Shown here piece by piece: positions 2,818 through 23,947 of a stretch of 32,000 nucleotides of DNA (positions are counted from its first letter, which is position 1; every line of letters starts with the position of its first letter). Origin of the DNA: an uncultured archaeon (GTDB lineage Archaea; Asgardarchaeota; Jordiarchaeia; Jordiarchaeales; Jordiarchaeaceae); NCBI GenBank assembly GCA_964510585.1, contig CAZECW010000062.1, forward strand, positions 1 through 32,000. The letters are read 5' to 3'. Under the pieces are notes generated by a model. The model saw nothing but the letters and a program-made list of their open reading frames with translations. It made no database searches and had not been told where the DNA came from. A program made the position numbers and the translations under genes.

Positions 2818-4080
2818 TTATTTTGCTATCCATAGGTCGCGTGGGAAGTCTTTGGTTAGGATTTCGGGTCCGTGTTTTGTCACTAGTACAATGTCTTCGG
2901 GCATTGCTCCTACCAGCCGCATTTCTAGGTCGAAGGCTCCCACCTCGACGCAGAACACCATATTTTCCTTTACTATGGTGGGATTGTCGGGTATAATCCA
3001 TGGTGGTTCGTGATTTGATAAACCCATACCATGTCCTACGAAGTTTATTATGTGCATCTGCATGGGGTCCTTTTTCTTTAACGCTTCAACTGAGGCTTTG
3101 TGAGCGTCTCCCACTTTTGCCCCTGGTACCAGAGCATCTATGGCTGCCTGTTCACCTTCTATGGCAAGTTTGCTTAGTTCCACCTGTTTTTGTGGCGGGT
3201 CACCCACATAGAAGGTTCTTTGCCAATCCATCTGGTAGCCTTTATAGGTGGGTCCGCAGTCACTAATCCCCATGTCTCCCTCCTTTATGATGCGGTCTAC
3301 AGGTCCTGTTATCCACCTGAATACCCCTCCTTCCTCCTCAGCATTGCTTGTCCAACATAGCCAGGTTGAACAGTTTGGGGACTCAAGGAGGTCTTGTTCG
3401 GCGCAGGCTTTCCAGAAGGCTCTGTGTACATCCAGCTCGTTTACTCCGGGTTTGATGGTTTCAAAGGCCGCTCTAAGAACTTTTACTGACCTCTTGCATC
3501 CTTCACGGATGATTCCGATTTCGTATGGTGTTTTTTGGCTCCTCTGCTCCCAAATGACTGGGTCTGCAGCTACTATTTTTGCGTGTGGCAATCTTTTGTT
3601 TAGGAGGTCGTATTCTTCAAATGAAAGGTAGGTGTCTATGTCGGGTCCCTTTTCGATACCAATTGTTCCTCTATCCAGTTTCAGTTCTTTTAGGGTGTCT
3701 AGCAGTAATTGCCAAAACTCGCTTGGTACCCTTTGCCCAGTTAGAAAGGAAGCCAATAATTGTCCGCCCTCAGTTTCACTCCAGAAGCGGTTTTCCTCAA
3801 CATAGGTTGTTAGTAGATTCTGCCAGTAGAATGCTCCATGACAAACATTTATGGGATTGTGGTCTCTTGGTATAATCATGCAGGAGCGCCACACCCAGTT
3901 GTGCATCTGTGCCACATCAGTCCATCCGCCATAGTATCGCCAGTTTATGGGCGAGAATAGGATCATAGCATCCATATTGTGCTTGGCTAATAGTTCTCTG
4001 GCTGTTTGGATACGTTTCTTATATTCTGAGTAGGGCATTGTCTCCCATTTTTTCTTAGCTACCTCTCCCTTTTCAACCAT
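2818..4080 (-). CDS. Xaa-Pro peptidase family (M24B) with N-terminal creatinase domain
   Basis: Metal ligands present: DCGPTYKGYQMD (two Asp), GHGMGLSNHE, CVEVG, PEDIVLVT. Start placed at ATG 4080 behind GGTGAG; the ORF track extends to 4143. Confidence 0.9.
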   Translation of the reverse strand: MVEKGEVAKKKWETMPYSEYKKRIQTARELLAKHNMDAMILFSPINWRYYGGWTDVAQMHNWVWRSCMIIPRDHNPINVCHGAFYWQNLLTTYVEENRFWSETEGGQLLASFLTGQRVPSEFWQLLLDTLKELKLDRGTIGIEKGPDIDTYLSFEEYDLLNKRLPHAKIVAADPVIWEQRSQKTPYEIGIIREGCKRSVKVLRAAFETIKPGVNELDVHRAFWKACAEQDLLESPNCSTWLCWTSNAEEEGGVFRWITGPVDRIIKEGDMGISDCGPTYKGYQMDWQRTFYVGDPPQKQVELSKLAIEGEQAAIDALVPGAKVGDAHKASVEALKKKDPMQMHIINFVGHGMGLSNHEPPWIIPDNPTIVKENMVFCVEVGAFDLEMRLVGAMPEDIVLVTKHGPEILTKDFPRDLWIAK

Positions 4081-4479
4081 TTTAAACTCACCCATTTTTT
4101 GCCTATTCTCTGATAAGAAATGTCTAAAAAAGTCTAAAACCAATCGTTATTTCATACTTTTAATGGATATACAAGTTAAATTAACTTTTGCTAATTGTGG
4201 CTATTTAAATCCAAGCGCCCAATATTACAATCAGTGATTTATAAACAATGAAATAGCACTTGCTTTAAGAATTATCTAAAACCTTTATTTTTTTAAATAA
4301 ATCCAATTTTTAAGAAGGATGATAGAAAAATTTTTTACATTATTTTTATATAAACTTATACAAAAAAGTGATAAAATTCGTAGCTTAACGATAGAATAGT
4401 TGATTATCAGTAAAGTGAAAACATATCCGAGGGCTTTGTAAACGATCTACCAAACGAAAAATTTTTGGGTAAGGCAACA

Positions 4480-8007: not shown

Positions 8008-8634
8008 TCAAATAAGTCTCATACCCGCTTTGAAGGCCCTCAAGTTTGTTTCGCCAGTTCCTGGAGGAGTATTCTGTATGATTCCTTCCTCCAATATTTC
8101 TTGTCTTACGGGGATCATTTTTGTGGCGTATGCCGCTCCTAACATTACCATGTTCAAAGCCCTCGCGCTTCCCGTTTCTTTGATGGAGACATCTGTGCCA
8201 TTAATGGTCTTTACATTTGTGATTTCCAATTGTTTTAGGTAGCCTAATATCTGTTCAATAGTAGGGTACTTGTGTGCCGGTTTTCCAGACATGTCTCTTA
8301 GTCCATCGCGAGATAATCCACGCGTTTCAATGGGATAATCATTGGTGATTACTAGGGTTTCTCTGTTTCCATAAATTGCAGCTACTTGGAGTGCTACTAG
8401 TGGTTCGAAGGAAACTATCAGGTTTGCCCCTCCCTCAGGTATCCTCGGAGAGTAGAGTTCCTCACCTGCCCTAATGTAACAGTAAGTTAAAGCGTTTCTA
8501 TGCGTCCATGGGGGAACATCCGCCGATAGAACATTTTTTCCCTCCTGAGATAGAGCTATAACAAGCAATCTTTCAGTGAGGATGATTCCTTGACCGGACA
8601 ACCCGCAAATTATGAGGTTCAACTCTTCACTCAT
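8008..8634 (-). CDS. iorB: Indolepyruvate:ferredoxin oxidoreductase beta subunit (POR gamma-like domain)
   Basis: GLSGQGIILT, ANLIVSFEPLVAL, ALNMVMLGAA, NLRAFKAG; same operon as iorA. Confidence 0.88.
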   Translation of the reverse strand: MSEELNLIICGLSGQGIILTERLLVIALSQEGKNVLSADVPPWTHRNALTYCYIRAGEELYSPRIPEGGANLIVSFEPLVALQVAAIYGNRETLVITNDYPIETRGLSRDGLRDMSGKPAHKYPTIEQILGYLKQLEITNVKTINGTDVSIKETGSARALNMVMLGAAYATKMIPVRQEILEEGIIQNTPPGTGETNLRAFKAGMRLI

Positions 8635-8650: not shown

Positions 8651-10270
8651 TCACTTGATTTCCTCTATTGCCTTATGGGGGCATATCTGGGGACAGACAC
8701 CGCAGCCCACGCATAGAGCCAGGTCTATTTCGGGGGACCGATACTGAAGATTGGGGTTATCTGTCCAAATTAATGCTATGCATCCAAAGTTTTCGATACA
8801 GTAGCCGCATATGGCACAGTTTAAGCAGCGTTTAGCCTCCATAACCGCAAACTGCTCAGAGTATCCCAACATTATCTCCTTAAAGTTCTTCTTCCTCTCC
8901 TCTGGACTTAAAACGGGCATGGATACCCTCTTTTTTCTAACTATGCCTCGGGGAACCGCTACCACTTCGGGAGGTTTATTTCTGACTTCTTTTCTTCCCT
9001 CAACTAAGTTTTCGCCCTTTAGGTAGCGGTCTATGCTCTCTGCAGCCATGTGCCCGGTTTGCACTGCCTCCACAAAGCTTGCAGGGCCATTAACACAGTC
9101 GCCAGCCGCAAAAACTCCCGGGACGTTGGTTTCAAGGGTCTCGGGGTTAACTTTGAAGGTTCTGAGTGGAGTTTTGTCCAATTTTTCAAATCCTTTAAAG
9201 TCTGGTTCCTGACCGATGGCTATGATTATGGTGTCGGCTTCCATGATTGTTTCTGTGCCTTCAACGAATTGTGGGGAAAATCTTCCTTGGGAGTCAAATA
9301 CGCAGCTGCAAACTATGGTTTCTAAGCCTACCACTTTGCCTCCCCTTGTGAGAATTCTTTTGGGTCCAAGCGAGGGACATATTTTGACTCCCTCCTCTAC
9401 TGCCTCTTCTAATTGCCATTCGTGGGCGGGCATCTCATCACGCGACTCTAAGCAGACCATGGAAACCTCTTTCGCCCCCAGCCTTACTGCACACTGGGCA
9501 CAGTCCACCGCCACATTTCCCCCGCCGATAACAATTACTCGTTCTCCCAGCTCCACCCTTTTTCCCATCTTCACTTCTCTCAGGAAAGGCAGTCCGTAAA
9601 TTACGCCCTTACTCTCTATTCCTTCCAGTTTGATTCTTCGAGGATTCTGGGCACCTATAGCCACTAGTATAGCCGTGAACCCCTCACTCCAGAGCTTATC
9701 AATGTCGTATATGGGAGTCTCAGTTCTTATCTCTATTCCGGCTTTTAGAATCTGGTTGATTTCTTTTATGGCGACTTCCCGTGGAATTCGGTAATCTGGA
9801 AGGCAACTTGTTATCATTCCTCCGGGCTGCTTTGAAGCTTCGAAAACTGTTACTCTATAGCCCAGCTTTAGCAAATCGTAGGCCGCTGTTAGCCCCGCGG
9901 GGCCCGCTCCCACTATTGCAATCTTCTCTTCTCTTTTTGGCTCAATCTTTTTCAGCCAAGGCTGGTCTGAGTAAAAATCGGCTAGGAAGCGTTTCAAATC
10001 CCTTACTGCTATGGGTTGATCTATGCTGCTTCTTGTACAATATGTTTCGCAGGGATGATGGCAAATTCGTCCACAGATGGCTGGGAAGGGCATCCTCTCC
10101 ACAATGGTTTCCAAGGCCTCCCTAAACTTTCCCATAGATATTAAAGTTACATATTTCGGGATATCTATGTCTGCGGGGCAAGCTGCATGGCAGGGGGCCC
10201 TATTTCCAGTCCAAGCTTGACACAGCTCTCTATTTATTTTCCACTGGTTTCCTAAAGGTTTCAAACTCAT
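8651..10270 (-). CDS. GltD-like FAD/NAD(P) oxidoreductase inserted in an IorA-type 2x[4Fe-4S] ferredoxin domain
   Basis: PCHAACP, CGRICHHPCETYC, FAD motif VGAGPAGLTAA, second Rossmann IGGGNVAVD, FAAGD, EAKRCLNC, then CAICGYCIENFGC and CVGCGVCPQICP. Confidence 0.85.
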   Translation of the reverse strand: MSLKPLGNQWKINRELCQAWTGNRAPCHAACPADIDIPKYVTLISMGKFREALETIVERMPFPAICGRICHHPCETYCTRSSIDQPIAVRDLKRFLADFYSDQPWLKKIEPKREEKIAIVGAGPAGLTAAYDLLKLGYRVTVFEASKQPGGMITSCLPDYRIPREVAIKEINQILKAGIEIRTETPIYDIDKLWSEGFTAILVAIGAQNPRRIKLEGIESKGVIYGLPFLREVKMGKRVELGERVIVIGGGNVAVDCAQCAVRLGAKEVSMVCLESRDEMPAHEWQLEEAVEEGVKICPSLGPKRILTRGGKVVGLETIVCSCVFDSQGRFSPQFVEGTETIMEADTIIIAIGQEPDFKGFEKLDKTPLRTFKVNPETLETNVPGVFAAGDCVNGPASFVEAVQTGHMAAESIDRYLKGENLVEGRKEVRNKPPEVVAVPRGIVRKKRVSMPVLSPEERKKNFKEIMLGYSEQFAVMEAKRCLNCAICGYCIENFGCIALIWTDNPNLQYRSPEIDLALCVGCGVCPQICPHKAIEEIK

Positions 10271-12096
10271 TTGGCAATCAACCCCTTTATTCTTTGTGCC
10301 AGAAGGGCGCAGGTTTGCCTAGCTATCACCACAGCCACCCCCTTAACCTCTAAGGCTTCTCTGAGGGTTTTGGTGGTTTCCTCAAAGTTGTATGGGTCTA
10401 CCACCTTAACGTAGTCTACCTGAAAGGATTTCACTATTTCCTCAATGTCCAAAATCTTGGTGGGTTCCCTAGTTGCGGTAATGCCGAAGGCACCCGGATG
10501 GGGCTGATGCCCAGTATTCCCAGTTGTCCTGTTATCTAGAACGTAGAGCAGTAAGTTGGCTTTGTTATAAACAGCATTAACCAACGCCGACATTCCCGAG
10601 TGGAAAAACGTACTATCTCCGATGTATGCGATTATTTTATCTTTTGAACCCGCGTGGTAGATTCCGCTGGCCATGCTGATTCCAGAACCCATACTAAGGT
10701 TTGCATGTGAAGCATTAAGTGGCGGTACAGCCAACATACCGTAGCAACCCACATCTCCAATAAAGGTAACATCATCTCCATAAAGCTCATTGCAAACAGT
10801 CTTCAGAGCAAACCCAGCGGCCAATTCTGGGCATCCGGGACAGAATCTGGGAACATTAATAAAGAACAGCTCCCTGTATAGCAGATTTTTGCCCCTCTCA
10901 ATTCTTTCCTCTTCCTCTTTTGGCAGGAAGGTTACATTTAGCATTTTGCCCAGTGCTCTTCCAATCATGTTTCGAGTAACCTCGTTGCAGATGGGAATGT
11001 CACCGGTGAGTTTGCCAAAAATCTTGGCGTGTCTGTCCATGTTTGCCGAGAGGGCACGCACCTCTGTCTCTACGAAGGGTTCAATCTGCTCCACAACTAA
11101 AACTTTCTCCGTTTTCTCCAATATTTCGGCAACCTTACTTTTGGGCAGGGGGTAGGATGTGACCAGTTTCAGGATTGCCACCTTTTCCTCTGCGCCTAGA
11201 AACTTTATGGCTTCCATTGCCTCCTGGTAACATTCACCAACTGCAATCACTCCAAATTGGGCATCCCCACCAAAAACCAGAGTGTTCCAGGGTAACTCAT
11301 CCACAACTTTTTCAGTGTAATCAGCCTTGGGCAGTGAACCAACAGTGTTCTCCCACTCCTTCACTGGTAATTCGTCGTGAAACCTCATGTGCTTTGCACC
11401 GAAAGGCTTCATGGGCCAGGGGAAGGCGTCTCCTAGAAGCCATCGGCGGTTCTTATCAAAGCTTGGTTTCCTCTCCCTTATGTCGTGGCGAATTTCTCCA
11501 AAGGTGACTGGAGCTCTTTGATAAGCCAGCCCAGTCGTGATTCTAACCACAACAGGAAGTTTAACCTTCTCCGAAAGCTCAAAGGCCTGAAACGTATAGT
11601 CCTTAACCTCCTGTATGGAGGTGGGCTCGATGACTGGAACTTCAGCATACCTTGCCAAATAGCGGGTGTCCATCTCATTCTCCGTTTCTAAAGCGCCCGG
11701 ATCGTCGCCTACCGCCAAAACTAGCCCTGAGGGGCCGAGATTGGCTCCCTGAACCAGAGAATCTATGATAACATTCATGCCCAACTGTTTCATGGGTGAC
11801 AGGGCCCGCACGCCAGCCATTGCTGCCCCTAGAGCTACATCATATGCGACTTTTTCGTTAGATGACCATTCCACGTGCATTGAGGGGTAGATTTTTGCGG
11901 CCATAGCTAGGCTCTCGATTGTGTACTGTAGGGGTGAACCGGGATAGGCTGCCACCACCTTTACACCGGCTTCGATGGCACCTCTGGCAATCGCCTCGTT
12001 ACAGCTAATCATGAATGTTTTTCCCGGATAATCCTTGGCTACATCACCACTAGCCCACTTCAGAAAAGTGGGAGGCGCATAAGTTTCTTTAACCAT
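10267..12096 (-). CDS. iorA: Indolepyruvate:ferredoxin oxidoreductase alpha subunit lacking the C-terminal ferredoxin domain
   Basis: NEAIARGAIEAG, YPGSP, EWSSNEKVA, FCPGCP, GDVGCY, TPP motif GDSTFFHSG...DNRTTGNTGHQP. ATG 12096 lies 9 nt after GAGG (ORF track uses TTG 12102). Confidence 0.92.
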   Translation of the reverse strand: MVKETYAPPTFLKWASGDVAKDYPGKTFMISCNEAIARGAIEAGVKVVAAYPGSPLQYTIESLAMAAKIYPSMHVEWSSNEKVAYDVALGAAMAGVRALSPMKQLGMNVIIDSLVQGANLGPSGLVLAVGDDPGALETENEMDTRYLARYAEVPVIEPTSIQEVKDYTFQAFELSEKVKLPVVVRITTGLAYQRAPVTFGEIRHDIRERKPSFDKNRRWLLGDAFPWPMKPFGAKHMRFHDELPVKEWENTVGSLPKADYTEKVVDELPWNTLVFGGDAQFGVIAVGECYQEAMEAIKFLGAEEKVAILKLVTSYPLPKSKVAEILEKTEKVLVVEQIEPFVETEVRALSANMDRHAKIFGKLTGDIPICNEVTRNMIGRALGKMLNVTFLPKEEEERIERGKNLLYRELFFINVPRFCPGCPELAAGFALKTVCNELYGDDVTFIGDVGCYGMLAVPPLNASHANLSMGSGISMASGIYHAGSKDKIIAYIGDSTFFHSGMSALVNAVYNKANLLLYVLDNRTTGNTGHQPHPGAFGITATREPTKILDIEEIVKSFQVDYVKVVDPYNFEETTKTLREALEVKGVAVVIARQTCALLAQRIKGLIAK

Positions 12097-12380
12097 CTTC
12101 AAAATCCTCTCAACGAATAACTTTTAAAACATTATAGTGACAATTCATAAGTCTATCTATTGTCCTGTCCTAAATAGTTTCGCAAACTCAAATGAATGAA
12201 CTGCAGGAATTTATTAAGTTTTTGTGCTTTTGAAGATATGCAAAAAGAGATGAAAATTGTGAAACTGATTGCTTGACCAGTATTTTTATAAGTATGAATT
12301 ATGCAAACGTTTGGTAAAAACCTATTTTTAATTCTCTTACGATTCTTTCCCTTCTATTTTTTGTTGAATTCCTTATTTAC

Positions 12381-13699: not shown

Positions 13700-14842
13700 T
13701 TAACCGGCCAACATTTTTGAGGCAAGCAAGGCATATATCTTTGTTGTGTCAATCACGTCTTCTACTTTAAAGTGCTCATCCGGTTGATGCCCCACCTTGG
13801 GGTCGCTGGGACCAATGATTATTGTGGGAATTCCGATTTCGGCAAAAAATCGCCCATCACTTATTTGGGCGTAGCCCGTGAGTTTAGGATCTAATTTTAG
13901 CTCTCTATAGACTTCTTGAGCCACCTTGACCAATTTGTTCTCCGGAGATGTTTCAAAGGGATGACCCTCAGCCAGTACTATAACGTCTGCCTTAAAGTCC
14001 GGATCTCTATTCTTGAGGTCTTCTATAATCTCGAAGATTTCTTTTTTAATTTCTTCTGTGGTTTGTCCGGGTATCATTCTTCGATCAATGGTTACTTCGC
14101 ATGAGTCTGGTACCATGTTAAGTCTTACTCCACCACTAATGGTTCCCACACAAATGGAGGGAGGTGTGGTTAGTGGGTGGCGTTGCTTGGCGATTTTTTT
14201 CTCAATTTTTTCTTCGATCTCGTTGAGAAATTTCCTCATTTTATCTATGGCGCTGATTCCCTCCCAAGGTGTACTGGCGTGTGCAGCCCTTCCCTTGGTT
14301 TTTACGTAGAACCAGACGCCCCCCTTCTCTGCTATTGCAATTTTGTTATCAGTTTGCTCCCCAATGACCACATAGTCGGGACGAAGCCCCTTATTCAAAC
14401 AATGCTTCGCACCTGCCAATCCTCCGGACTCCTCGTCACTTACTGGGTTTAGAATCATGGTTCCCTCAAGTTTCAATCCCTCCTCCACTATGGCTTTGCC
14501 CGCCATAACCATGGCTACAGTATTGGCCTTAGCATCTGCACATCCCCTACCATAGATGATTCCATTTACTATCTCAGCGCCGAAAGGGTCGTGAGTCCAA
14601 TTGTTAAGATCTCCGGGAGGAACAACATCCAAGTGGCTATTGAAACACAGTTCAGGCCTGCCCTCCCCTATTCTTGCGATGATGTTGGGCTTATCGTCCT
14701 GAATTTTTTCGATAGTGTATTTGATGCCTGCTTCTCTTAACTTTTGCTCAACAAGTTGAAAGGCTTTCCTTGTGTCCCCTGGAGGGTTAACCGTGTTTAT
14801 CCTTACCAGTTCGACCAGAAAATCAATGATTTCATCGTGCAT
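13700..14842 (-). CDS. M20 family metallo-amidohydrolase (ArgE/DapE/YgeY-like)
   Basis: NSHLDVVPPG, GRGCADAK, DEESGG, GEQT, GRAAHAS dimerisation domain, GHQPDE. Confidence 0.9.
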   Translation of the reverse strand: MHDEIIDFLVELVRINTVNPPGDTRKAFQLVEQKLREAGIKYTIEKIQDDKPNIIARIGEGRPELCFNSHLDVVPPGDLNNWTHDPFGAEIVNGIIYGRGCADAKANTVAMVMAGKAIVEEGLKLEGTMILNPVSDEESGGLAGAKHCLNKGLRPDYVVIGEQTDNKIAIAEKGGVWFYVKTKGRAAHASTPWEGISAIDKMRKFLNEIEEKIEKKIAKQRHPLTTPPSICVGTISGGVRLNMVPDSCEVTIDRRMIPGQTTEEIKKEIFEIIEDLKNRDPDFKADVIVLAEGHPFETSPENKLVKVAQEVYRELKLDPKLTGYAQISDGRFFAEIGIPTIIIGPSDPKVGHQPDEHFKVEDVIDTTKIYALLASKMLAG

Positions 14843-14878: not shown

Positions 14879-16276
14879 TCACCTCACTGTTTTTACTATT
14901 TCCTCGTCTATTTTTCCCTTGACTGGTTTTCCATGGCCAGGTTTGCCTACTAGCTGTCCTTCTTCTATCACAAGTGTACCTCTTGATATGACCACCGTTG
15001 GCCAGCCTGTTAATTCCCAACCTTCCCAATTTACATAGTCGATATCCATGTGAAGGTCTTCTAAACGTACCTTTCTCTTCAATTTGGGATCTAAGATAAC
15101 TATGTCTGCATCAAAACCCGGTGCTATCAGCCCCTTTTTAGGATACAAACCAAAGAGCTTAGAAGCGTTTAGGCTGGAAACCTCCACAAGCCTAGGCAAA
15201 GTAATCCGCCCCTTATTCACTCCCTCAGAATACAGTATCGGCAACATCAGCTCATTACCGGGTGCGCCATTCGGAGTTTCGTTAAAGGACTTGGCAGCCA
15301 TCTTTGCTTCACTCGGCAGAGGAACATGGTCTGAACCATAGAGGGCAACGTAACCCTCTGCAAGTGCTTTCCAAAGAGCCTCATTGTCCTCCTTCTTTCT
15401 CAGGGGAGGACTTATTATGAAGTTTGCACCGTCAGGACGTTCGTAGAGATCATCCGTTAGTGTTAGGTACTGGGGACATGTTTCTGCATAAACTGCTACG
15501 CCTCTAATTCTAGCGTTTCTTACTAGTTCCACCCCTTCCTTCGTAGACATATGCGCAATATAGATTCTGGATTTAGCCCATTCTGCAAGAAGTATGGCCC
15601 TCTGTATCGCTTCTGCTTCCACCAGATTTGGTTTGGATAGCGGATGGTATTTTGGCTCCTTCTTTCCTTCCTCAACAAATTTTTTAACCATACCCTCTTC
15701 CAACGAATAGTTTTCCGCGTGAACACCAATAATTGCACCTATCTCCCTCGATTTATTCAACATCGTATATAGGTTCCAATCGCTAATCGCCAAAAGTAGA
15801 TAGGTCATGAACTCCTTGAAAGAAGGGTAGCCATACTTAACGACTTCTACCATTTCCCTCAGTACAGCATTCATATCGGAAAAATCAACAAATATACCAT
15901 GAAAAGCAAAATCTATAACCGACTGCTTACCAGCAATTTCTTCTTTCCTTTTAATATCGCCCATCACCCCCAACTTCTCATAAGTTATGGGGTCAAACTG
16001 CGCCGCAAAATCAATCACAGTAGTTATGCCACCGAAAGCCGCAGATATAGATCCAGTTTCCCAAGTCTCTTTGGGGAGAGCCCCCTGAAAGGGCTGTGCA
16101 ATGTGACTGTGGCTATCAATTAGTCCGGGCAGAACTAACTTTCCACGCGCATCGATGACTTTATCCGCCTTTTCAGTCTTTCCAACACTAACTATTTTTC
16201 CATTCTCTACCCCTACATTCGCCTCAAAAACACCGCCAGGCGTCACAACCTTTCCATTTTCAATAACAAGCTCCAC
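14879..16276 (-). CDS. hydA: Dihydropyrimidinase / D-hydantoinase (cyclic amidohydrolase)
   Basis: PGLIDSHSH, SFKEFMTY (carbamylated Lys), VHAEN, IAHMST, ETCPQYL, SPPLR, GSDH, GLIAPGFDADIV; GTG start behind AGGAGG. Confidence 0.88.
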   Translation of the reverse strand: MELVIENGKVVTPGGVFEANVGVENGKIVSVGKTEKADKVIDARGKLVLPGLIDSHSHIAQPFQGALPKETWETGSISAAFGGITTVIDFAAQFDPITYEKLGVMGDIKRKEEIAGKQSVIDFAFHGIFVDFSDMNAVLREMVEVVKYGYPSFKEFMTYLLLAISDWNLYTMLNKSREIGAIIGVHAENYSLEEGMVKKFVEEGKKEPKYHPLSKPNLVEAEAIQRAILLAEWAKSRIYIAHMSTKEGVELVRNARIRGVAVYAETCPQYLTLTDDLYERPDGANFIISPPLRKKEDNEALWKALAEGYVALYGSDHVPLPSEAKMAAKSFNETPNGAPGNELMLPILYSEGVNKGRITLPRLVEVSSLNASKLFGLYPKKGLIAPGFDADIVILDPKLKRKVRLEDLHMDIDYVNWEGWELTGWPTVVISRGTLVIEEGQLVGKPGHGKPVKGKIDEEIVKTVR

Positions 16277-17190: not shown

Positions 17191-18504
17191 CTATTCTCCA
17201 TAACGGCGCCCCAAGGACCCCGACTTCTCTGCGTACTTATAGCCCCACTTATCCAAAGCCCTTTTCAGTTCAGGGTGAGTCTCCGCATATCTCTCGAGGG
17301 GAATTTTTTTCATAACAGCATCAATAGCTTGCCTCATTGCAGTAGCCCCAGCCCTAGTACCGTCCGGATGGCCATGAATACCGCCTCCCGCATTGATAAC
17401 AAGATCTGTTCCCAACAACTCAATATTTTTGGGAACAAGCGCCGGGTGAATTCCACCCGAAGCCACGGGCATTACTGGTTTAATATTGCCCCAACCTTGG
17501 ATTAAAACTTCCCCAGACTCCTTCGCCTCAGCTACCTCCTCGGGAAGCCCCATTTTACCAGCAGCTGTTCCACTGTGCAACTGATCCCCCCCAGCAAGCC
17601 TAGTTAATTTGGCTATCACCCTCATGTGGACTCCGTGAAGAGGATTCCTAGTGAAAGCAGCATGAAATGTTCTATGACAGTGGATGGGAAGCTTTATTGA
17701 TGGATCCTCTGCAAGATGCTGTAGTGCAGCTAGGCCAGAGAGCAGTATGTCGAGCATAATCATGTTTGCTCCGTTCTCCACAGCGTAATCTGCAAACTCC
17801 AGCAACCTGTTTAGGTTTCCAGTTATGTTTAACGCGTAAAATACGGTTCTTCCAGTTTCCTCTTTTACTAGGTCTATTTTCTCCATAACCTTGGAGAGCC
17901 TCTCCTCAAGGGGACAGAAACTCTGAGAAACTAGGGTTTCGTCGTCCTTGATAAGGTCCACTCCGCCCACTGCTGCTTCGTACGCTACCTCGGCGGTCTG
18001 CGAGGGATTGAGCCCAACCTTAGGTTTAATGATGGTCCCCAAATGAGGCCTTCTATCTTTTTTGGTGCCCACAATTTCCCGTACACCCTCTAAACCAAAT
18101 TTTGGTCCCGGAAAATATGTGAGCACAGACTTGGGAAATTCGGCATCCAGCAGCCTCACATTTTTCAGAGCGGTTAGGCCAAATAGATTTCCCATAATCA
18201 TACTCATTATGTTGGGGATACCTCCCTTTTCCAAGTCAAAGAGTTCAACGGGAAAGGCTATCTTAACTAGGCCAACTCCCTTCTTCCCCTTTTCTTCGAA
18301 TTGAAAAGCCTTAGCAGCAAGTCTCCGCTGAATATCAGTAGTAACGGTTCCAATGTCGGTCCAAGTTCCTATGGATTCTTCCGCCGCTATAGCTTCACCA
18401 GCACCTTTAAGGCTGCCGTCGGTCTCCACATAGTAGGTGCAAATAATATGATTTTCAGGGTCGATTCCCGAAACATCAGAAAAAAATATCCCTTCCAAAA
18501 CCAT
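17191..18504 (-). CDS. rbcL: RuBisCO large subunit, form III-type
   Basis: Catalytic equivalents present: E60/T65/W66 (AEESIGTW), N123 (GNLFG), K175/K177 (IKPKVG), K201-D203-E204 (IKDDE), H294/R295, H327, K334 (AGKM), S379-G380-G381, GGG-GHP. Confidence 0.88.
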   Translation of the reverse strand: MVLEGIFFSDVSGIDPENHIICTYYVETDGSLKGAGEAIAAEESIGTWTDIGTVTTDIQRRLAAKAFQFEEKGKKGVGLVKIAFPVELFDLEKGGIPNIMSMIMGNLFGLTALKNVRLLDAEFPKSVLTYFPGPKFGLEGVREIVGTKKDRRPHLGTIIKPKVGLNPSQTAEVAYEAAVGGVDLIKDDETLVSQSFCPLEERLSKVMEKIDLVKEETGRTVFYALNITGNLNRLLEFADYAVENGANMIMLDILLSGLAALQHLAEDPSIKLPIHCHRTFHAAFTRNPLHGVHMRVIAKLTRLAGGDQLHSGTAAGKMGLPEEVAEAKESGEVLIQGWGNIKPVMPVASGGIHPALVPKNIELLGTDLVINAGGGIHGHPDGTRAGATAMRQAIDAVMKKIPLERYAETHPELKRALDKWGYKYAEKSGSLGRRYGE

Positions 18505-19490: not shown

Positions 19491-20588
19491 CTAGATTCTG
19501 ATTTTTATGTTTTCAATAGGGTATGCCATGCACGGGTGGATGTATCCGAATTTGCGGTCGGCTTCCAGCAATGTCACGGTGTTGGGCATGAATACCTTTC
19601 CTGAAACTAGTTTGGTGCGGCAGGTTGTGCATACCCCCGAGCGGCAAACTGCGGGGATGACTATGCCCTCCCTTTCCAGCGAGTTCATAAGTGGCTCGCC
19701 AGCACGAGCTTTGAAGGTCTTTTTTCCGATTACCTCCACGGTGAACATATCGTCTGCCTTTATGCCTTTTGGCCAACCTGGCTCCAATGTTACATCGTCT
19801 GGTGGACCGTAAGCCTCACGTTTGAGTCTCCTTCTGGGCAGGTTTAAACTAGCCAGTTCAGTATCGCAGAAATTGTACATTGCTTCCGGTCCGCACATGT
19901 AGAATGTTTTACCATTGGGGTCGCCGATCTGGTTCAAAATGATGTCCCTAGTTAAGAAGCCGCATAGTCCCTTGTAACCTTCTGGTGGCTCGGAAATAAC
20001 CACGCTGTAGTGGATGTTTTTATTCTTTTTTGCTATTTGTTCTAGTTCCTTTCCGAAAATTATGTCTTCTGGAACGCGGCTACCGTAAATAAGCCAAATG
20101 TTTAGATCGAGTTTCCGCTCCACAACTTCTCTTATGATGCTCATGAAGGGAGTTATTCCACTGCCACCTGCAAGAAATACAAGGTTTTTTCCATCTGTGA
20201 GTGGTTCATAATAGAACTGCCCCATGGGACCCGTGGTTTCGAACTCGTCGCCAACCTTTACTTTGTCCAGCAGATAATTGGACACAAAGCCACCCTTCTT
20301 TCGGCGAACTGTGAGGTCAATGTAGTCAGTCTTCGTGGGAGGAGAAGATATACTGTAGGGTCTGCTGGTGAGCACATTTCCTATTTTGACGAAGAGGTTA
20401 ACGTACTGCCCAGCTCTGAATGGTGGTAGCTTTCCCTTGGTTGGCACCATTCTGAAGGTCTTGGTGCTCGGCGTCTCCTGAATTATTTCTTTTACTTTAA
20501 GATACATTCTTTCTGGATGTAGGCTTTCCACGATTTTCTTCACAAAGTCTGGCTCTTTAGTATAATCTCTCGGTTTTGCTTCCGACAT
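19491..20588 (-). CDS. FNR-family FAD/NAD(P)-binding reductase with C-terminal plant-type [2Fe-2S] domain
   Basis: RPYSISS, GFVSNYL, GPMG, AGGSGITP, MCGP, CRSGVCTTC...C. Confidence 0.92.
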   Translation of the reverse strand: MSEAKPRDYTKEPDFVKKIVESLHPERMYLKVKEIIQETPSTKTFRMVPTKGKLPPFRAGQYVNLFVKIGNVLTSRPYSISSPPTKTDYIDLTVRRKKGGFVSNYLLDKVKVGDEFETTGPMGQFYYEPLTDGKNLVFLAGGSGITPFMSIIREVVERKLDLNIWLIYGSRVPEDIIFGKELEQIAKKNKNIHYSVVISEPPEGYKGLCGFLTRDIILNQIGDPNGKTFYMCGPEAMYNFCDTELASLNLPRRRLKREAYGPPDDVTLEPGWPKGIKADDMFTVEVIGKKTFKARAGEPLMNSLEREGIVIPAVCRSGVCTTCRTKLVSGKVFMPNTVTLLEADRKFGYIHPCMAYPIENIKIRI

Positions 20589-20606
20589 TTTTTTCTTCCT
20601 CCTTTT

Positions 20607-22103
20607 TTATTTGTTCTTTATTTCTTTTATTACCTTTTCTGCGGCCCAGCGGCCTGATGTTATGCAGGGCTCGTACCCTCCTCCTGGCTGAGTCCAAGCC
20701 CCGGCAAAGTAGAGACCCTTAACGGGGCCCTCATTAGATAAGCGTGAGAGTGGTCCGTCCTTTACAGAATAGGTGAATCCCAGATATGTTCCTCCGGGGT
20801 TGCCCGAGTATCTCATGAGGGTTATTGGGGTGGCAACTTCAATAACCTCTATGTGCTCTCTTAAGCTGGGTATATGTTTTTCCGCCTTTTCAATCAGCAT
20901 TTCTGCATACTTGTTTTTAGTTTCTACATATTTTGAGGGCGGGGTGCTGTACCATGGTTCGGGGTCGCTGAGGGCTGAGAGTACAATTACGGAGGTCCCC
21001 GGAGGGGAAAAGTTTGGGTCGCCCTTATTGTACGCTGTTAATAGTAGTAAATCGGTGTCATTTAGTTTCTTCCTTGATTCGTAAACTTGGTCATGATTAT
21101 ATGTGTCGTAGTACCAGATTTCGAAATCATCAACACCAAGTTCCTTGCATGAGACATCCATCCCCATATAGGCGGTTACCAATGATGTACTGATTTCACT
21201 GGATCTTATCCTTTCCAGAAAGGATTCGGGCACCTTATCCTTTCCGATTAGGTTGACTGCAGTGGAGATAGGATTAACATTTGAAATAATGTAGTCACTA
21301 TATATTTTTTCACCTTTCTCAGTGATTACTCCTTTCACCTTGCCTCCCTCTGTGAGGATTTGTTTGACTCCGCAGCCAAGCCTTACCTCTCCACCGTTTT
21401 TCTCTATGACATCTACAAATGCGCCGGATAACATGGCGGATTTTCCAAAGATTTGTTTGGGTCCATTCCCTATGTATGAGGAGAGGGCAATGGCGAATAG
21501 AACGTAGGATATTTTTGAGGGCGGTAAGCCGAAGTAGGGCCAGTACACGCTGAGCACCGCCCTGAGCTTCTCATCCTTAACGTAGGAGTTTACCACCTCG
21601 CCCCAATTCTTATCCATCTTTGTGAGCAGGTATTCTTGGAGTTGCTCCTGAGTCATCTTAGGCTTTCCTGTTTGCAGATAATCAATCGCGTAGCCCGTGT
21701 TAAAAGACAACTCAAAAATTTTCTTGATTCCCTCCGCCTCCCTAGGAAAATGGTCTATGAGAATGCCCTCCGCAGCCTCCCGGTTGGCCGGAATTGTTAT
21801 GTCAATGTCGGGAAACACCGCCCTATAACAGTCCTCCAGACTCACAAATTTAACTCTGTCCATTACGCCCAATTCCTCAAGAAAGAGGCATAGCCCACTC
21901 TTCTCCTTCAAATTTAGCCCAGACATCTGGTGGAGAGCAATTTCAAACTCGAAGCGCCCCCTAACAAATGTTGAAGCGTAGCCTCCAGGCTGATTGTGGC
22001 GCTCTAAAAGCAATACGTTTAACCCATTTTTAGCAAGCGTCGCCGCCGAAGCCAGGCCGCCCAAGCCTGCACCTATAACTATTGCATCGTATCGGTCAGC
22101 CAT
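20607..22103 (-). CDS. CrtI/phytoene-desaturase-like (COG1233-type) FAD oxidoreductase
   Basis: IGAGLGGL...ER...PGG dinucleotide fold, GGEVRLGCGV, ATPIT, GLYFAGAWTQPGGG. Confidence 0.85.
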   Translation of the reverse strand: MADRYDAIVIGAGLGGLASAATLAKNGLNVLLLERHNQPGGYASTFVRGRFEFEIALHQMSGLNLKEKSGLCLFLEELGVMDRVKFVSLEDCYRAVFPDIDITIPANREAAEGILIDHFPREAEGIKKIFELSFNTGYAIDYLQTGKPKMTQEQLQEYLLTKMDKNWGEVVNSYVKDEKLRAVLSVYWPYFGLPPSKISYVLFAIALSSYIGNGPKQIFGKSAMLSGAFVDVIEKNGGEVRLGCGVKQILTEGGKVKGVITEKGEKIYSDYIISNVNPISTAVNLIGKDKVPESFLERIRSSEISTSLVTAYMGMDVSCKELGVDDFEIWYYDTYNHDQVYESRKKLNDTDLLLLTAYNKGDPNFSPPGTSVIVLSALSDPEPWYSTPPSKYVETKNKYAEMLIEKAEKHIPSLREHIEVIEVATPITLMRYSGNPGGTYLGFTYSVKDGPLSRLSNEGPVKGLYFAGAWTQPGGGYEPCITSGRWAAEKVIKEIKNK

Positions 22104-22207
22104 AATTTTCCCTCTACTAACTTTCTTAACACACCTCCTAGAGCCAAATTTTCTATTTTAGATTTAATATTCTTTGGAACTGCCCATATTTTTATTTTAC
22201 TTTTAAA

Positions 22208-23710
22208 TTAGTGTCCTTCATCCTTTTTCCTGATTATTGCCTCAGCTGCAGCTTTACCGGATAATATGCAGTTTTCATAAGCTCCTCCAGGCTGGCTCCA
22301 AGCATTTGCCAGGTAAAGTCCTTTTAGGGGTCCCTCTTGAGGAAGTCTCAAGGGTGGAGATCCAGCGGTGGAGAAACTAAATCCAAGATAGGTTCCCCCA
22401 TGGTTCCGGGTATATCTCATTATGGTTAAAGGTGTGAACACTTCTACCACTTCTATGTGTTCTCGAAGCCCCGGAGCCACCCTTTCTGCTTTTGTAATTA
22501 GTCTGTCTGCAAGTCTATTTTTTGTTTCTACGTATTTGTGGGGTGACAAATCGTACCAAGGATCAGCATAACTCGGGGCTGTGAGTGTAACAACTGAGGT
22601 GCCCGGCGGTGAGAAGTCGGGGTAGGCTAAGTTGTATGTGGTGATTAATTGGTGTTCTGGCTCTTCTAGGGTAAAAGCTTTTTGGTAGGCTTTGTCAAAG
22701 TCTGGATGGTCGTTTAAACCTATTTCAAATTCTTTTATCCCAAGCTTATTATGTGGAACATCGAGCCCTAAGTAAACTCCAATGAGGGAAATTCCCACTT
22801 CATTTGACCTGAGTTTATCAAAATATGTGCTTGGTATTTTCTCTGCTCCTATTAGGTCTAGTGACATGGTTATCGGGTTAGCATTGGAGACAATGAAATC
22901 CGATTTTATCTGTTCACCGTCATCTGTTATAACCCCAGTTACTTTGTCTCCCTCTGTGAGTATCTTCTTAGCCCCGCAGCCGAGGCGCACTTCACCTCCA
23001 TACTCATTGATAAGCTCCACAAAGGCCGCGGCTAGGCCGTGAGATTTCTCTTTGGGTTGTGCTCCACCATAGTGGAATAGATGGGACATGGCAACTGCAA
23101 AAATTATGTAGTCCACCTTTTTGGGTGGTAGACCCAGGAACATCCATAACTGGGAAATTATTGCTCTTACGATGGGATTCTTAACTTCGGGATACATTAT
23201 GTCGGCACAAGTTTTTCCCAAGTAACCGAGCAGGTTTTTTGAGAGCTCCTCCTGAGTGAGGCTGGGGTCTCCTTTGCGGAACTTGTTTATGGTTTCGAAG
23301 GTTGCAAACATCCGGTTTAGAAATTTTGTTATGTCTTCGCTGTCCTTGGGAAAATTTTCCTTCAACACGTTTTCAATATTTTCTTTACCGGTGGGTAGAG
23401 TGATTTCAAAGTCTGGAAATACACATTGGTAAACGTTCTTCAGTTTTGTGAATCCCACCTTCTTGGTAATTCCCAATTCCTCAAGGTAGGGAATAAGATT
23501 TCCAGTTTTCCTCTCCAGATCTGTGCCAGAAAGCATATGGAGTGAAGAGTCAAATTCGAAGCGCCCCCTAACAAAACCAGTGGCGCAACCTCCGGGCAGC
23601 TCCCTCTTTTCAAGTAGGAGAACACTCAGCCCACTCTTAGCTAACAGAGCAGCAGAGGAAAGACCACCAAGACCACCGCCTATGACTATCACATCATACT
23701 TATCAGGCAT
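22208..23710 (-). CDS. CrtI/phytoene-desaturase-like FAD oxidoreductase, paralog
   Basis: IGGGLGGL...EK...PGG, GGEVRLGCGA, FTPLT, GLYLANAWSQPGGA. Start placed at MPDKY (23710); ORF track extends to 23731. Confidence 0.85.
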   Translation of the reverse strand: MPDKYDVIVIGGGLGGLSSAALLAKSGLSVLLLEKRELPGGCATGFVRGRFEFDSSLHMLSGTDLERKTGNLIPYLEELGITKKVGFTKLKNVYQCVFPDFEITLPTGKENIENVLKENFPKDSEDITKFLNRMFATFETINKFRKGDPSLTQEELSKNLLGYLGKTCADIMYPEVKNPIVRAIISQLWMFLGLPPKKVDYIIFAVAMSHLFHYGGAQPKEKSHGLAAAFVELINEYGGEVRLGCGAKKILTEGDKVTGVITDDGEQIKSDFIVSNANPITMSLDLIGAEKIPSTYFDKLRSNEVGISLIGVYLGLDVPHNKLGIKEFEIGLNDHPDFDKAYQKAFTLEEPEHQLITTYNLAYPDFSPPGTSVVTLTAPSYADPWYDLSPHKYVETKNRLADRLITKAERVAPGLREHIEVVEVFTPLTIMRYTRNHGGTYLGFSFSTAGSPPLRLPQEGPLKGLYLANAWSQPGGAYENCILSGKAAAEAIIRKKDEGH

Positions 23711-23947
23711 TTTTCTCTCTCTCCATTTCAAAGCCAGTACAACAATTTTTTGAAAAAGGCCTTCTTTTCAGATTCTTGATTTTAGTCTTTTAGGTGGAAA
23801 AATTATTTATGCATATTCTAAGCGCAATCCTAAAATTTTAGCATCGATTTCTAGTAGCTAACACCCCTAAAAACTTCATAAAAGAGCATGGGAATGAAAC
23901 ATACCGCCTATTTCGTCGCCTTAGGGACTAAGAATTAAATTGTAAAG

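What the first reader, a model, noticed from the sequence alone, without database searches (positions are those of the whole stretch)
8651..10270. IOR ferredoxin domain split off and interrupted by a GltD-like flavoprotein: possible NAD(P)-linked or bifurcating IOR
IorA normally ends in a 2x[4Fe-4S] domain, which is missing here. The next gene starts like that domain (WKINRELC), then has ~470 aa of GltD-type FAD/NAD module, and resumes with CAICGYCIENFGC...CVGCGVCPQICP. Sixteen Cys can be assigned to up to four clusters: 8 for the split ferredoxin and 8 for the GltD module, with the C-terminal RCLNC completing its first cluster. Similar insertions are known in large HdrA-like proteins, but I do not know of one in an IOR. 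The complex could pass electrons from 2-oxoacid oxidation directly to pyridine nucleotide. The acidic residue in CLES after the second Rossmann strand hints at NAD(H).
Basis: partly seen in the sequence, partly recalled or inferred. Interest (0 to 1): 0.7.

Follow-up and report, generated by a model that had tools for sequence, protein, structure and literature searches.

The report
Asgard IOR with built-in NAD(H) flavoprotein
An Asgard archaeon encodes an indolepyruvate-type 2-oxoacid oxidoreductase whose iron-sulfur exit domain lies on a separate protein and is split by an inserted flavin/NAD(H) module, so it probably gives electrons to NAD+ rather than ferredoxin; the design is common in uncultured microbes, but I found no study of it.

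Summary
On the minus strand lie iorA (10267-12096, lacking its 2x[4Fe-4S] domain), a 539-aa Fe-S flavoprotein (8651-10270) and iorB (8008-8634), tightly coupled by an ATGA overlap. The middle protein is a circularly permuted GltD/NfnB cassette (residues 25-487) set between Cys1 and Cys2 of an IorA-type ferredoxin domain.

All related states exist elsewhere:
- canonical IorA
- iorA-iorB alone
- iorA plus an uninterrupted 80-aa ferredoxin plus iorB
- the three-gene form
- single fused IorA-GltD-Fd proteins: at least 120 checked, among 419 long (over 1070 aa) relatives

All 16 Fe-S cysteines, Cys17 included, are invariant or nearly so in 132 OFOR-linked homologues.

The most likely function is a non-bifurcating, pyridine-nucleotide-reducing 2-oxoacid oxidoreductase. 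NAD+ is favoured because a CLE motif replaces the NADPH-type YRR. Bifurcation is disfavoured: the cluster ligand is Lys93, not Glu; the NfnB Arg333 position is His; and no nfnA is adjacent.

The Asgard cassette groups with HdrL-type cassettes, not with bacterial IOR cassettes (AU test rejects one clade). That suggests separate acquisition or cassette exchange.

This scan had already noted the same theme on other DNA (at least 11 notes). I found no paper describing it. Verdict: a new variant of a known kind.

The parts
10267..12096 (-). iorA-like TPP subunit without the ferredoxin domain. The ORF opens at TTG 12102; the likely start is ATG 12096.
   Evidence: POR_N, PFOR_II and TPP_enzyme_C hits. 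TIGR03336 is matched over 4-539 of 595. The protein ends at the linker before the Fd domain of canonical paralogues, and the proximal-cluster Cys 421, 424, 453 and 598 are invariant. Start codon.
8651..10270 (-). Gene for the 539-aa Fe-S flavoprotein: a split ferredoxin domain carrying a GltD/NfnB cassette.
10199..10270 (-). Residues 1-24: first strand of the ferredoxin domain (E9-12) and its first cluster cysteine, Cys17.
   Evidence: Cys17 is invariant in 132 homologues. Fused forms carry a canonical Fd start here. The stretch resembles, by eye, the N-terminus of a stand-alone Fd. AF2 gives strand 9-12 with pLDDT about 86.
8810..10198 (-). Residues 25-487: circularly permuted GltD/NfnB cassette. 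It holds two [4Fe-4S] sites, FAD and NAD(P)H Rossmann folds, and the displaced NfnB N-terminal segment that ends in RCLNC.
   Evidence: The best solved relatives are 9bov_A, 8oh5_C and 9n5u_A, in which the same permuted module is inserted in a NuoG-like protein. R481, C482 and C485 are invariant.
9446..9526 (-). Residues 249-275: second Rossmann motif (GGGN...) ending in CLE, where NADPH enzymes have YRR.
   Evidence: Alignment of 71 cassettes shows CLE or YRR at this position. NfnB, StnC and NfnABC have YRR.
8654..8809 (-). Residues 488-539: the rest of the IorA-type 2x[4Fe-4S] ferredoxin domain (Cys 488, 491, 497, 520, 523, 526, 530).
   Evidence: In the own genome, the best non-self matches of residues 484-539 are the Fd domains of canonical IorA paralogues, at E 3.8e-10 and 6e-6. 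It is 44% identical to a stand-alone Fd from a related operon, E 8e-14. AF2 gives H490-495, E500-503, E512-515, H526-529 and E535-538.
8008..8634 (-). iorB-like subunit (208 aa).
   Evidence: PF01558, and TIGR03334 at 1.6e-31 but below its cut-off. A 16-nt gap with AGGAGG lies before its ATG.
12122..12129 (-). TATA-like TTTTAAAA box about 26-33 nt upstream of the iorA ATG. Promoter role is inferred, not tested.
   Evidence: Read directly from the sequence.

Best explanation
The three genes most likely encode one enzyme: a CoA-dependent, TPP-containing 2-oxoacid (arylpyruvate-type) oxidoreductase that reduces a pyridine nucleotide instead of free ferredoxin.

Inferred electron path: TPP in IorA, then the IorA [4Fe-4S] cluster (Cys 421/424/453/598), then the two clusters of the split ferredoxin domain on the middle subunit (Cys 17/488/491/530 and 497/520/523/526). 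From there electrons pass to the two GltD-type clusters (Cys 482/485/27/78, and Cys 31 with two or three of Cys 66/70/74 plus Lys93), then to FAD, then as a hydride to NAD(P)+.

NAD+ is the more likely acceptor (about 2:1 over NADP+), because the 2'-phosphate-binding YRR motif is replaced by CLE.

The flavin is expected to be non-bifurcating. The enzyme would turn low-potential electrons from amino-acid-derived 2-oxoacids directly into NAD(P)H.

Shown: the gene anatomy, the domain order, the conserved cysteines, and the existence of fused and unsplit relatives. Inferred: physical assembly, cluster assignment, acceptor, direction and substrate.
For: - Complementary domain loss and gain: IorA lacks the Fd domain, which lies on the next gene.
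- Tight coupling of the three genes.
- The three-gene arrangement is conserved in Jordarchaeia/Freyarchaeia-type genomes and in other, unnamed (probably bacterial) metagenome contigs.
- Rosetta-stone evidence: at least 120 checked fused proteins of 1078-1186 aa with POR_N + TPP_C + Fer4_20 + Pyr_redox_2, among 419 long relatives, plus L133, where the fused ORF is followed directly by iorB.
- The 16 Fe-S cysteines and Lys93 are invariant or nearly so in 132 homologues.
- The fold is confidently NfnB/StnC-like, with pLDDT 92.
- Stand-alone NfnB-like proteins are proven Fd:NADP+ oxidoreductases (PMC12221290).
- In StnC the same permuted module passes electrons between NADPH and an Fe-S chain without bifurcating (PMC10482914).
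- CLE versus YRR dichotomy.
- Neighbouring peptidase genes fit amino-acid catabolism.
Against: - No biochemical data exist for any member.
- The cluster-by-cluster cysteine assignment rests on homology and counting, because model coordinates could not be read.
- The NAD+ preference rests on one motif.
- IorA and IorB score below the curated TIGR03336/TIGR03334 cut-offs, so the substrate may not be an arylpyruvate.
- The genome keeps four canonical IORs, and a closed genome of the same genus lacks this operon, so the enzyme is dispensable.
Confidence: 0.7

Rival explanations
1. Electron-bifurcating or confurcating IOR: the flavin splits or merges electron pairs, for example coupling 2-oxoacid oxidation to simultaneous reduction of NAD(P)+ and ferredoxin.
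For: The module is homologous to NfnB, the bifurcating subunit of NfnAB. Arg161, the equivalent of NfnB Arg201, is kept. The surface ferredoxin clusters could still meet free ferredoxin.
Against: - The ligand position of the FAD-proximal cluster is Lys93, as in non-bifurcating StnC (K170), not the Glu of NfnB.
- The NfnB Arg333 position is His283, and Phe in bacterial relatives.
- There is no nfnA-like gene next to it and no extended NfnB N-terminus.
- Oxidation of a 2-oxoacid by NAD+ is already exergonic, so no coupling is needed.
Confidence: 0.07
2. Reverse direction: an NAD(P)H-driven 2-oxoacid synthase (reductive carboxylation of an acyl-CoA) for amino-acid biosynthesis.
For: OFORs are reversible in principle, and the flavoprotein could feed electrons in. 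No tool result bears on this directly.
Against: NAD(P)H (about -320 mV) cannot drive a couple near -500 mV without coupling, and no bifurcation marks are present. The neighbours are peptidases, not biosynthetic genes.
Confidence: 0.05
3. The flavin hands electrons to an acceptor other than a pyridine nucleotide, for example polysulfide/S0 as in SudA/NsoC-type relatives, or O2 as a protective sink.
For: According to PMC10482914, close homologues of StnC include an NADPH-dependent sulfur oxidoreductase.
Against: The second Rossmann fold (GGGN motif) is intact and conserved. Those relatives also use NAD(P)H at this site.
Confidence: 0.05
4. The middle gene is an independent Fd:NAD(P)+ oxidoreductase that is merely co-transcribed, and IorAB works with free ferredoxin.
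For: Relatives in this IorA clade exist as iorA-iorB pairs with no ferredoxin at all, for example in Rhodomicrobium lacus. Stand-alone NfnB-like FNORs exist.
Against: Covalently fused forms are numerous. The ferredoxin part is specifically IorA-like. The IorA truncation point matches the N-terminus of the middle protein.
Confidence: 0.04

Closest known systems
Canonical indolepyruvate:ferredoxin oxidoreductase IorAB (TIGR03336/TIGR03334; Pyrococcus furiosus enzyme, Mai and Adams 1994, cited in PMC5109826)
   Same: TPP-binding alpha subunit with a proximal [4Fe-4S] cluster; IorB subunit; an IorA-type dicluster domain with a CxxCxxCx5C-like first motif.
   Different: The dicluster domain is on a separate polypeptide and is interrupted by about 460 aa of flavoprotein. 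The predicted acceptor is NAD(P)+ rather than ferredoxin. Scores fall below the curated cut-offs.
Fused IorA-GltD-Fd proteins of about 1100 aa in uncultured Dehalococcoidales and other bacteria (database entries only, annotated as IorA)
   Same: Same insertion point (between Cys1 and Cys2 of the first ferredoxin motif), the same conserved cysteines, and iorB downstream.
   Different: These are a single polypeptide. Most carry the NADPH-type YRR motif. Their cassette belongs to another clade.
StnC of the Sporomusa ovata Stn transhydrogenase and NfnA of the NfnABC complexes (PDB 8oh5, 9bov, 9n5u)
   Same: Circularly permuted GltD module inserted into an Fe-S host domain. A Lys occupies the proximal-cluster ligand position. 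These are the best sequence and fold matches.
   Different: Their host is a NuoG/FdhF-like protein, not an OFOR ferredoxin domain. They have an NADPH-type YRR motif and belong to HydBC-type bifurcating complexes.
HdrL (heterodisulfide reductase/glutamate synthase fusion; Desulfobacterium autotrophicum, PMC2702500)
   Same: The cassette is the closest relative of the window's (50-55% identity; sister in trees with 96-98 support) and carries the same CLE motif. It is described as carrying an NADH-binding site.
   Different: The host is an HdrA-like protein, and there is no TPP enzyme.
NAD(P)-linked 2-oxoacid oxidoreductases with an extra GltD-like subunit: phenylglyoxylate:NAD+ oxidoreductase PadEFGHI and 2-oxoglutarate:NADP+ oxidoreductase of Azoarcus evansii (from my own knowledge; Hirsch et al. 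1998 is cited in PMC5109826; NCBIfam NF045764 names PadG)
   Same: The principle is the same: an OFOR core wired through Fe-S clusters to an FAD/NAD(P) flavoprotein.
   Different: There the ferredoxin and the flavoprotein are separate, uninterrupted subunits of a POR/KOR-type enzyme. No homology test against PadH was run here.
Cac_0764-type monofunctional Fd:NADP+ oxidoreductases (PMC12221290)
   Same: NfnB-like, two [4Fe-4S] clusters plus FAD, non-bifurcating, no NfnA partner, no Arg333.
   Different: They have the canonical (unpermuted) order, stand alone, and use free ferredoxin and NADP+.

Membership tests
Indolepyruvate:ferredoxin oxidoreductase (IorA TIGR03336 / IorB TIGR03334) | Alpha subunit reaches the curated family score | tested here: not met
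   490.2 bits against a cut-off of 650.9. It is the best family hit, but only over model positions 4-539 of 595.
Indolepyruvate:ferredoxin oxidoreductase (IorA TIGR03336 / IorB TIGR03334) | TPP-binding fold and four Cys of the proximal [4Fe-4S] cluster | tested here: met
   POR_N and TPP_enzyme_C hits. Cys 421, 424, 453 and 598 and the GDSTF motif are invariant in 17 relatives.
Indolepyruvate:ferredoxin oxidoreductase (IorA TIGR03336 / IorB TIGR03334) | C-terminal 2x[4Fe-4S] domain on IorA | tested here: not met
   IorA ends at the linker. The domain lies, interrupted, on the next gene.
Indolepyruvate:ferredoxin oxidoreductase (IorA TIGR03336 / IorB TIGR03334) | IorB subunit reaches the curated score | tested here: not met
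   109.8 bits against a cut-off of 205.8. PF01558 is clearly present.
Indolepyruvate:ferredoxin oxidoreductase (IorA TIGR03336 / IorB TIGR03334) | Arylpyruvate substrates and ferredoxin as acceptor | not testable with these tools
   Needs an enzyme assay.
GltD/NfnB Fe-S flavoproteins (Fer4_20 + Pyr_redox_2) | Both Pfam domains above the gathering score, and an NfnB-like fold | tested here: met
   Fer4_20 at 87 bits and Pyr_redox_2 at 118.9 bits. Foldseek E 5e-40 to 5jca_L.
GltD/NfnB Fe-S flavoproteins (Fer4_20 + Pyr_redox_2) | Canonical order, with the RCxxC segment at the N-terminus | tested here: not met
   The segment lies after the flavin domains, at residues 445-485, as in StnC and NfnABC NfnA.
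Bifurcating NfnB (of NfnAB) | Adjacent upstream nfnA, an extended N-terminus, Arg333, and a Glu ligand of the proximal cluster | tested here: not met
   The neighbours are iorA and iorB. His283 lies at the Arg333 position and Lys93 at the Glu position.
StnC / NfnABC-NfnA type (permuted GltD inserted in an Fe-S host) | Permuted module and a Lys at the proximal-cluster ligand position | tested here: met
StnC / NfnABC-NfnA type (permuted GltD inserted in an Fe-S host) | NuoG/FdhF-like host, HydBC-like partners, and an NADPH-type YRR motif | tested here: not met
   The host is an IorA-type ferredoxin, the partners are IorA and IorB, and the motif is CLE.
NCBIfam NF009410 (PRK12771, NAD(P)-binding protein) | Curated score | tested here: not met
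   470.2 bits against a cut-off of 516, although nearly the full length is covered, 35-561 of 566.
PadEFGHI-type NAD-dependent 2-oxoacid oxidoreductase | Separate ferredoxin (delta) and GltD-like (epsilon) subunits beside POR-type alpha, beta and gamma | not tested
   Only PadG (NF045764) appeared, as a weak hit of IorA at 2.7e-5. No PadH comparison was made.

The most novel reading that the evidence does not exclude
The permuted GltD module is a plug-in cassette that has been wired into the same loop (between Cys1 and Cys2) of the IorA ferredoxin domain more than once. On this reading, the Asgard enzyme got its NADH-type cassette separately, from an HdrL-type donor, and so converged on the design found in bacterial IORs. 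The alternative is that the cassettes were swapped between hosts by recombination. Either way, it would be a natural, modular way of re-routing low-potential Fe-S wires to pyridine nucleotides.
Probability: 0.35. Interest if true: 0.7.

Novelty: new variant of a known kind. Interest (0 to 1): 0.55.

Why it matters
Metabolic reconstructions of Asgard archaea and many uncultured anaerobes count every IOR as a source of reduced ferredoxin. If this class reduces NAD(P)+ directly, the redox and energy balance of amino-acid fermentation changes. Less ferredoxin would need re-oxidising through hydrogenases or Rnf, and NAD(P)H would be supplied directly.

The locus also offers a clean natural series: unsplit, split, interrupted and fused. 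That series can be used to study how redox modules are inserted into Fe-S electron wires. The CLE/YRR pair is a ready hypothesis for switching cofactor specificity.

The enzyme is testable with three genes. As far as I could find, no member has been characterised.

Tried and rejected
- Model coordinates are not exposed. Cys-Cys distances and strand pairing could therefore not be measured, and I relied on DSSP strings and comparative evidence.
- Complex prediction was not run. The numerous covalently fused forms already argue for association, and a pass would not have moved my odds.
- The genome-contig scan with the flavoprotein returned 80 relatives. Only one, a Jordarchaeia genome, had iorA and iorB flanks.
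- The metagenome scan with the IorA alignment returned mostly canonical IorA, because the search patterns were generic. It still yielded L127 and L133.
- Four literature searches for an IOR or OFOR with a GltD/NfnB subunit found nothing relevant. The Asgard wetland paper does not mention it.
- The taxon of the genome behind L001-L003 could not be fixed, because no SSU rRNA was found. Cluster look-ups gave no organism names.
- The first tree run (IQ-TREE on 101 rows) timed out, so FastTree was used instead. The second AU test (with the alpha/beta-OFOR-associated cassettes added) did not finish.
- I first considered that the C-terminal 56 residues might be a complete ferredoxin, with Cys485 as its first ligand and Cys17 belonging to the GltD cluster. 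I rejected this because of the one-residue spacing in Dehalococcoidales forms, the invariant RCxxC pair, and the canonical ferredoxin start before the cassette in fused forms.
Full report
**What is there**

On the minus strand lie three tightly packed genes.
- An iorA-like gene. The ORF opens at TTG 12102; the likely start is ATG 12096, and it ends at 10267.
- A 539-aa gene at 8651-10270.
- An iorB-like gene at 8008-8634.

The iorA stop overlaps the next start (ATGA). A 16-nt spacer with AGGAGG precedes iorB, and a TTTTAAAA box lies about 30 nt upstream of the iorA ATG. The nearest homologues are annotated as Jordarchaeaceae, Jordarchaeum or Freyarchaeota, so the window comes from an Asgard archaeon.

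**IorA**

IorA has the POR_N, PFOR_II and TPP_enzyme_C domains. It matches IOR_alpha only over model positions 4-539 of 595, at 490 bits, below the 650.9 cut-off. The same genome holds four canonical IorA paralogues with the full C-terminal dicluster domain. In an alignment with them, this IorA and its orthologues stop exactly at the linker before that domain. They keep the TPP motif and the four cysteines of the proximal cluster.

**The middle protein**

Pfam finds Fer4_20, Pyr_redox_2 and a terminal Fer4. The best solved relatives are the NfnA subunit of NfnABC (9bov, 9n5u) and StnC (8oh5), followed by NfnB, GltD and DPD.

Residues 445-485 are the segment that forms the N-terminus of canonical NfnB/GltD and ends in RCxxC. 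Here it follows the flavin domains, so the module is circularly permuted, as in StnC. The Stn paper describes that arrangement as a GltD domain inserted in a NuoG-like protein.

Comparison of 81 relatives shows the same cassette, beginning at PCxxxCP and ending at RCxxC, embedded in different Fe-S hosts. One of these is HdrL-like proteins, the published 'heterodisulfide reductase/glutamate synthase fusion'.

**Is the ferredoxin domain really split?**

The protein has 24 Cys, 16 of them in the Fe-S parts. After RC482xxC485 come C488, C491 and C497, then CxxCxxCxxxCP. That is one cysteine short of two GltD ligands plus a full eight-Cys ferredoxin. The missing one is Cys17, at the end of the N-terminal strand. 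Five observations support this.

1. Families whose cassette is followed by a separate, complete ferredoxin lack an N-terminal Cys. Families with the overlapped run have one.
2. Fused IorA-GltD-Fd proteins carry a canonical ferredoxin start (strand plus Cys) 6-9 residues before the cassette. In the Dehalococcoidales forms the spacing after RCxxC is one residue, so the second GltD cysteine cannot be ferredoxin Cys1.
3. In a related operon (L126) an uninterrupted 80-aa ferredoxin lies between iorA and iorB. Its later cysteines align with 488/491/497 (44% identity over residues 488-539, E 8e-14). Its early Cys-x2-Trp-x4-Arg stretch resembles residues 17-24 by eye; BLASTP did not report that short stretch.
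4. In 132 OFOR-associated homologues, Cys 17, 31, 70, 74, 78, 482, 485, 491, 497, 520, 523, 526 and 530 are invariant. Cys 27 and 488 and Lys93 are nearly so.
5. With that alignment AF2 gives pLDDT 92. The termini show strand 9-12, helix 490-495, strands 500-503 and 512-515, helix 526-529 and strand 535-538. This is the strand-helix order of a dicluster ferredoxin. Coordinates could not be read, so strand pairing and Cys geometry are inferred.

The C-terminal part is specifically IorA-like. In the own genome its best non-self matches are the ferredoxin domains of canonical IorA paralogues.

**Distribution**

Relatives of this IorA clade show every state.
- iorA-iorB alone: Rhodomicrobium lacus and L127.
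- iorA, small ferredoxin, iorB: L126.
- The three-gene form: the window, L001-L005, L012 and L125.
- A single fused ORF followed by iorB: L133.

A search for longer proteins gave 419 clusters over 1070 aa. The best 120 all combine POR_N, TPP_C, Fer4_20 and Pyr_redox_2. Many are annotated IorA, and those with organism names are from Dehalococcoidales or other Chloroflexota. An alpha/beta-type OFOR with the same flavoprotein also exists.

Among 301 Asgard genomes, full-length orthologues were found only in the window's own genus. A closed genome of that genus lacks one.

This scan had already noted fused and three-gene forms in other genomes. I checked that claim independently.

**Origin**

On the IorA tree the Asgard three-gene clade groups (support 91) with the small-ferredoxin clade and one canonical IorA. 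It lies apart from the bacterial three-gene and fused clade.

On cassette trees (FastTree, and IQ-TREE with LG+C20) the Asgard cassette is sister to HdrL-like cassettes, with 98 and 96 support. The bacterial IOR cassettes lie in two other clades.

AU tests reject one clade for all IOR cassettes (delta lnL 265, p 2e-78). They also reject a clade of the Asgard cassettes with the bacterial CLE-type IOR cassettes (delta lnL 157, p 1e-56). The groups were defined by gene context but were chosen after a first tree had been seen, and the tree searches were short. This points to separate acquisition or cassette exchange. The direction (fission or fusion, insertion or deletion) is unresolved.

**Function**

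The simplest reading is an electron wire: TPP, then the IorA cluster, then two ferredoxin clusters, then two GltD clusters, then FAD, then NAD(P)+.

Stand-alone NfnB-like proteins are demonstrated Fd:NADP+ oxidoreductases, and StnC uses the same module non-bifurcatingly.

The marks of bifurcating NfnB are absent. Lys93 replaces the Glu ligand, His283 replaces Arg333, there is no nfnA, and there is no extended N-terminus. Arg161, the equivalent of NfnB Arg201, is kept, but it is also kept in StnC.

At the end of the second Rossmann strand the cassettes fall into two classes. YRR is the state in the NADPH enzymes NfnB, StnC and NfnABC. CLE is the state in the window, in HdrL-like proteins and in the bacterial three-gene forms. 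The acidic residue suggests NAD(H), but that is an inference from one motif.

Peptidase M20, M24 and amidohydrolase genes nearby fit amino-acid catabolism. The substrate is unknown, because both IorA and IorB score below the curated cut-offs.

**Known or new**

OFORs wired to a GltD-like flavoprotein are known in principle, from phenylglyoxylate:NAD+ and 2-oxoglutarate:NADP+ oxidoreductases of Azoarcus (my own knowledge). GltD cassettes inserted into Fe-S hosts are known from StnC, NfnABC and HdrL.

I found no paper describing an IOR with this module, although database entries are plentiful.

I therefore rate it a new variant of a known kind. It is of moderate interest because it is directly testable and bears on redox budgets in Asgard archaea and many uncultured anaerobes.

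Noticed in passing
window 17191-18504 (-): RuBisCO large-subunit homologue (RuBisCO_large at 2.9e-79 plus its N domain) in an Asgard genome. It is presumably a form III/IV-type enzyme.
   Followed up: no
window 19491-23731 (-): An FNR-like protein (FAD_binding_6, NAD_binding_1 and a 2Fe-2S Fer2 domain) follows two paralogous Amino_oxidase/FAD proteins of about 500 aa. This may be a small redox operon.
   Followed up: no
window 2818-4143, 13700-14842, 14879-16276 (all -): Peptidase M24 (prolidase-like), peptidase M20 and an amidohydrolase flank the operon. This fits peptide and amino-acid use.
   Followed up: partly
L126:5032-5274 (P0253): The stand-alone 80-aa ferredoxin between iorA and iorB has nine Cys and a Cys-x7-Cys loop. 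The loop sequence resembles the residues that flank the cassette in the window. It could be a scar of cassette loss or a pre-existing long loop.
   Followed up: partly
L122:995-4856: A split alpha (417 aa) and beta (305 aa) OFOR is followed by the same kind of ferredoxin-GltD protein (P0130). The plug-in is therefore not limited to IOR-type enzymes.
   Followed up: partly
G038 (closed genome, same genus): This genome has no full-length orthologue of the flavoprotein (best E 1.8e-90), whereas the other genomes of the genus do (one only as a partial match at a contig end). The operon is a presence/absence polymorphism within the genus.
   Followed up: no
iorA-like proteins of the three-gene forms (alignment): The three-gene-form IorA proteins share two insertions not seen in the four canonical paralogues of this genome, around residues 215-235 and 245-265 of the window protein. 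These could be docking surfaces for the flavoprotein.
   Followed up: no
window 25862-31300 (-): A very long ORF of 1812 aa.
   Followed up: no
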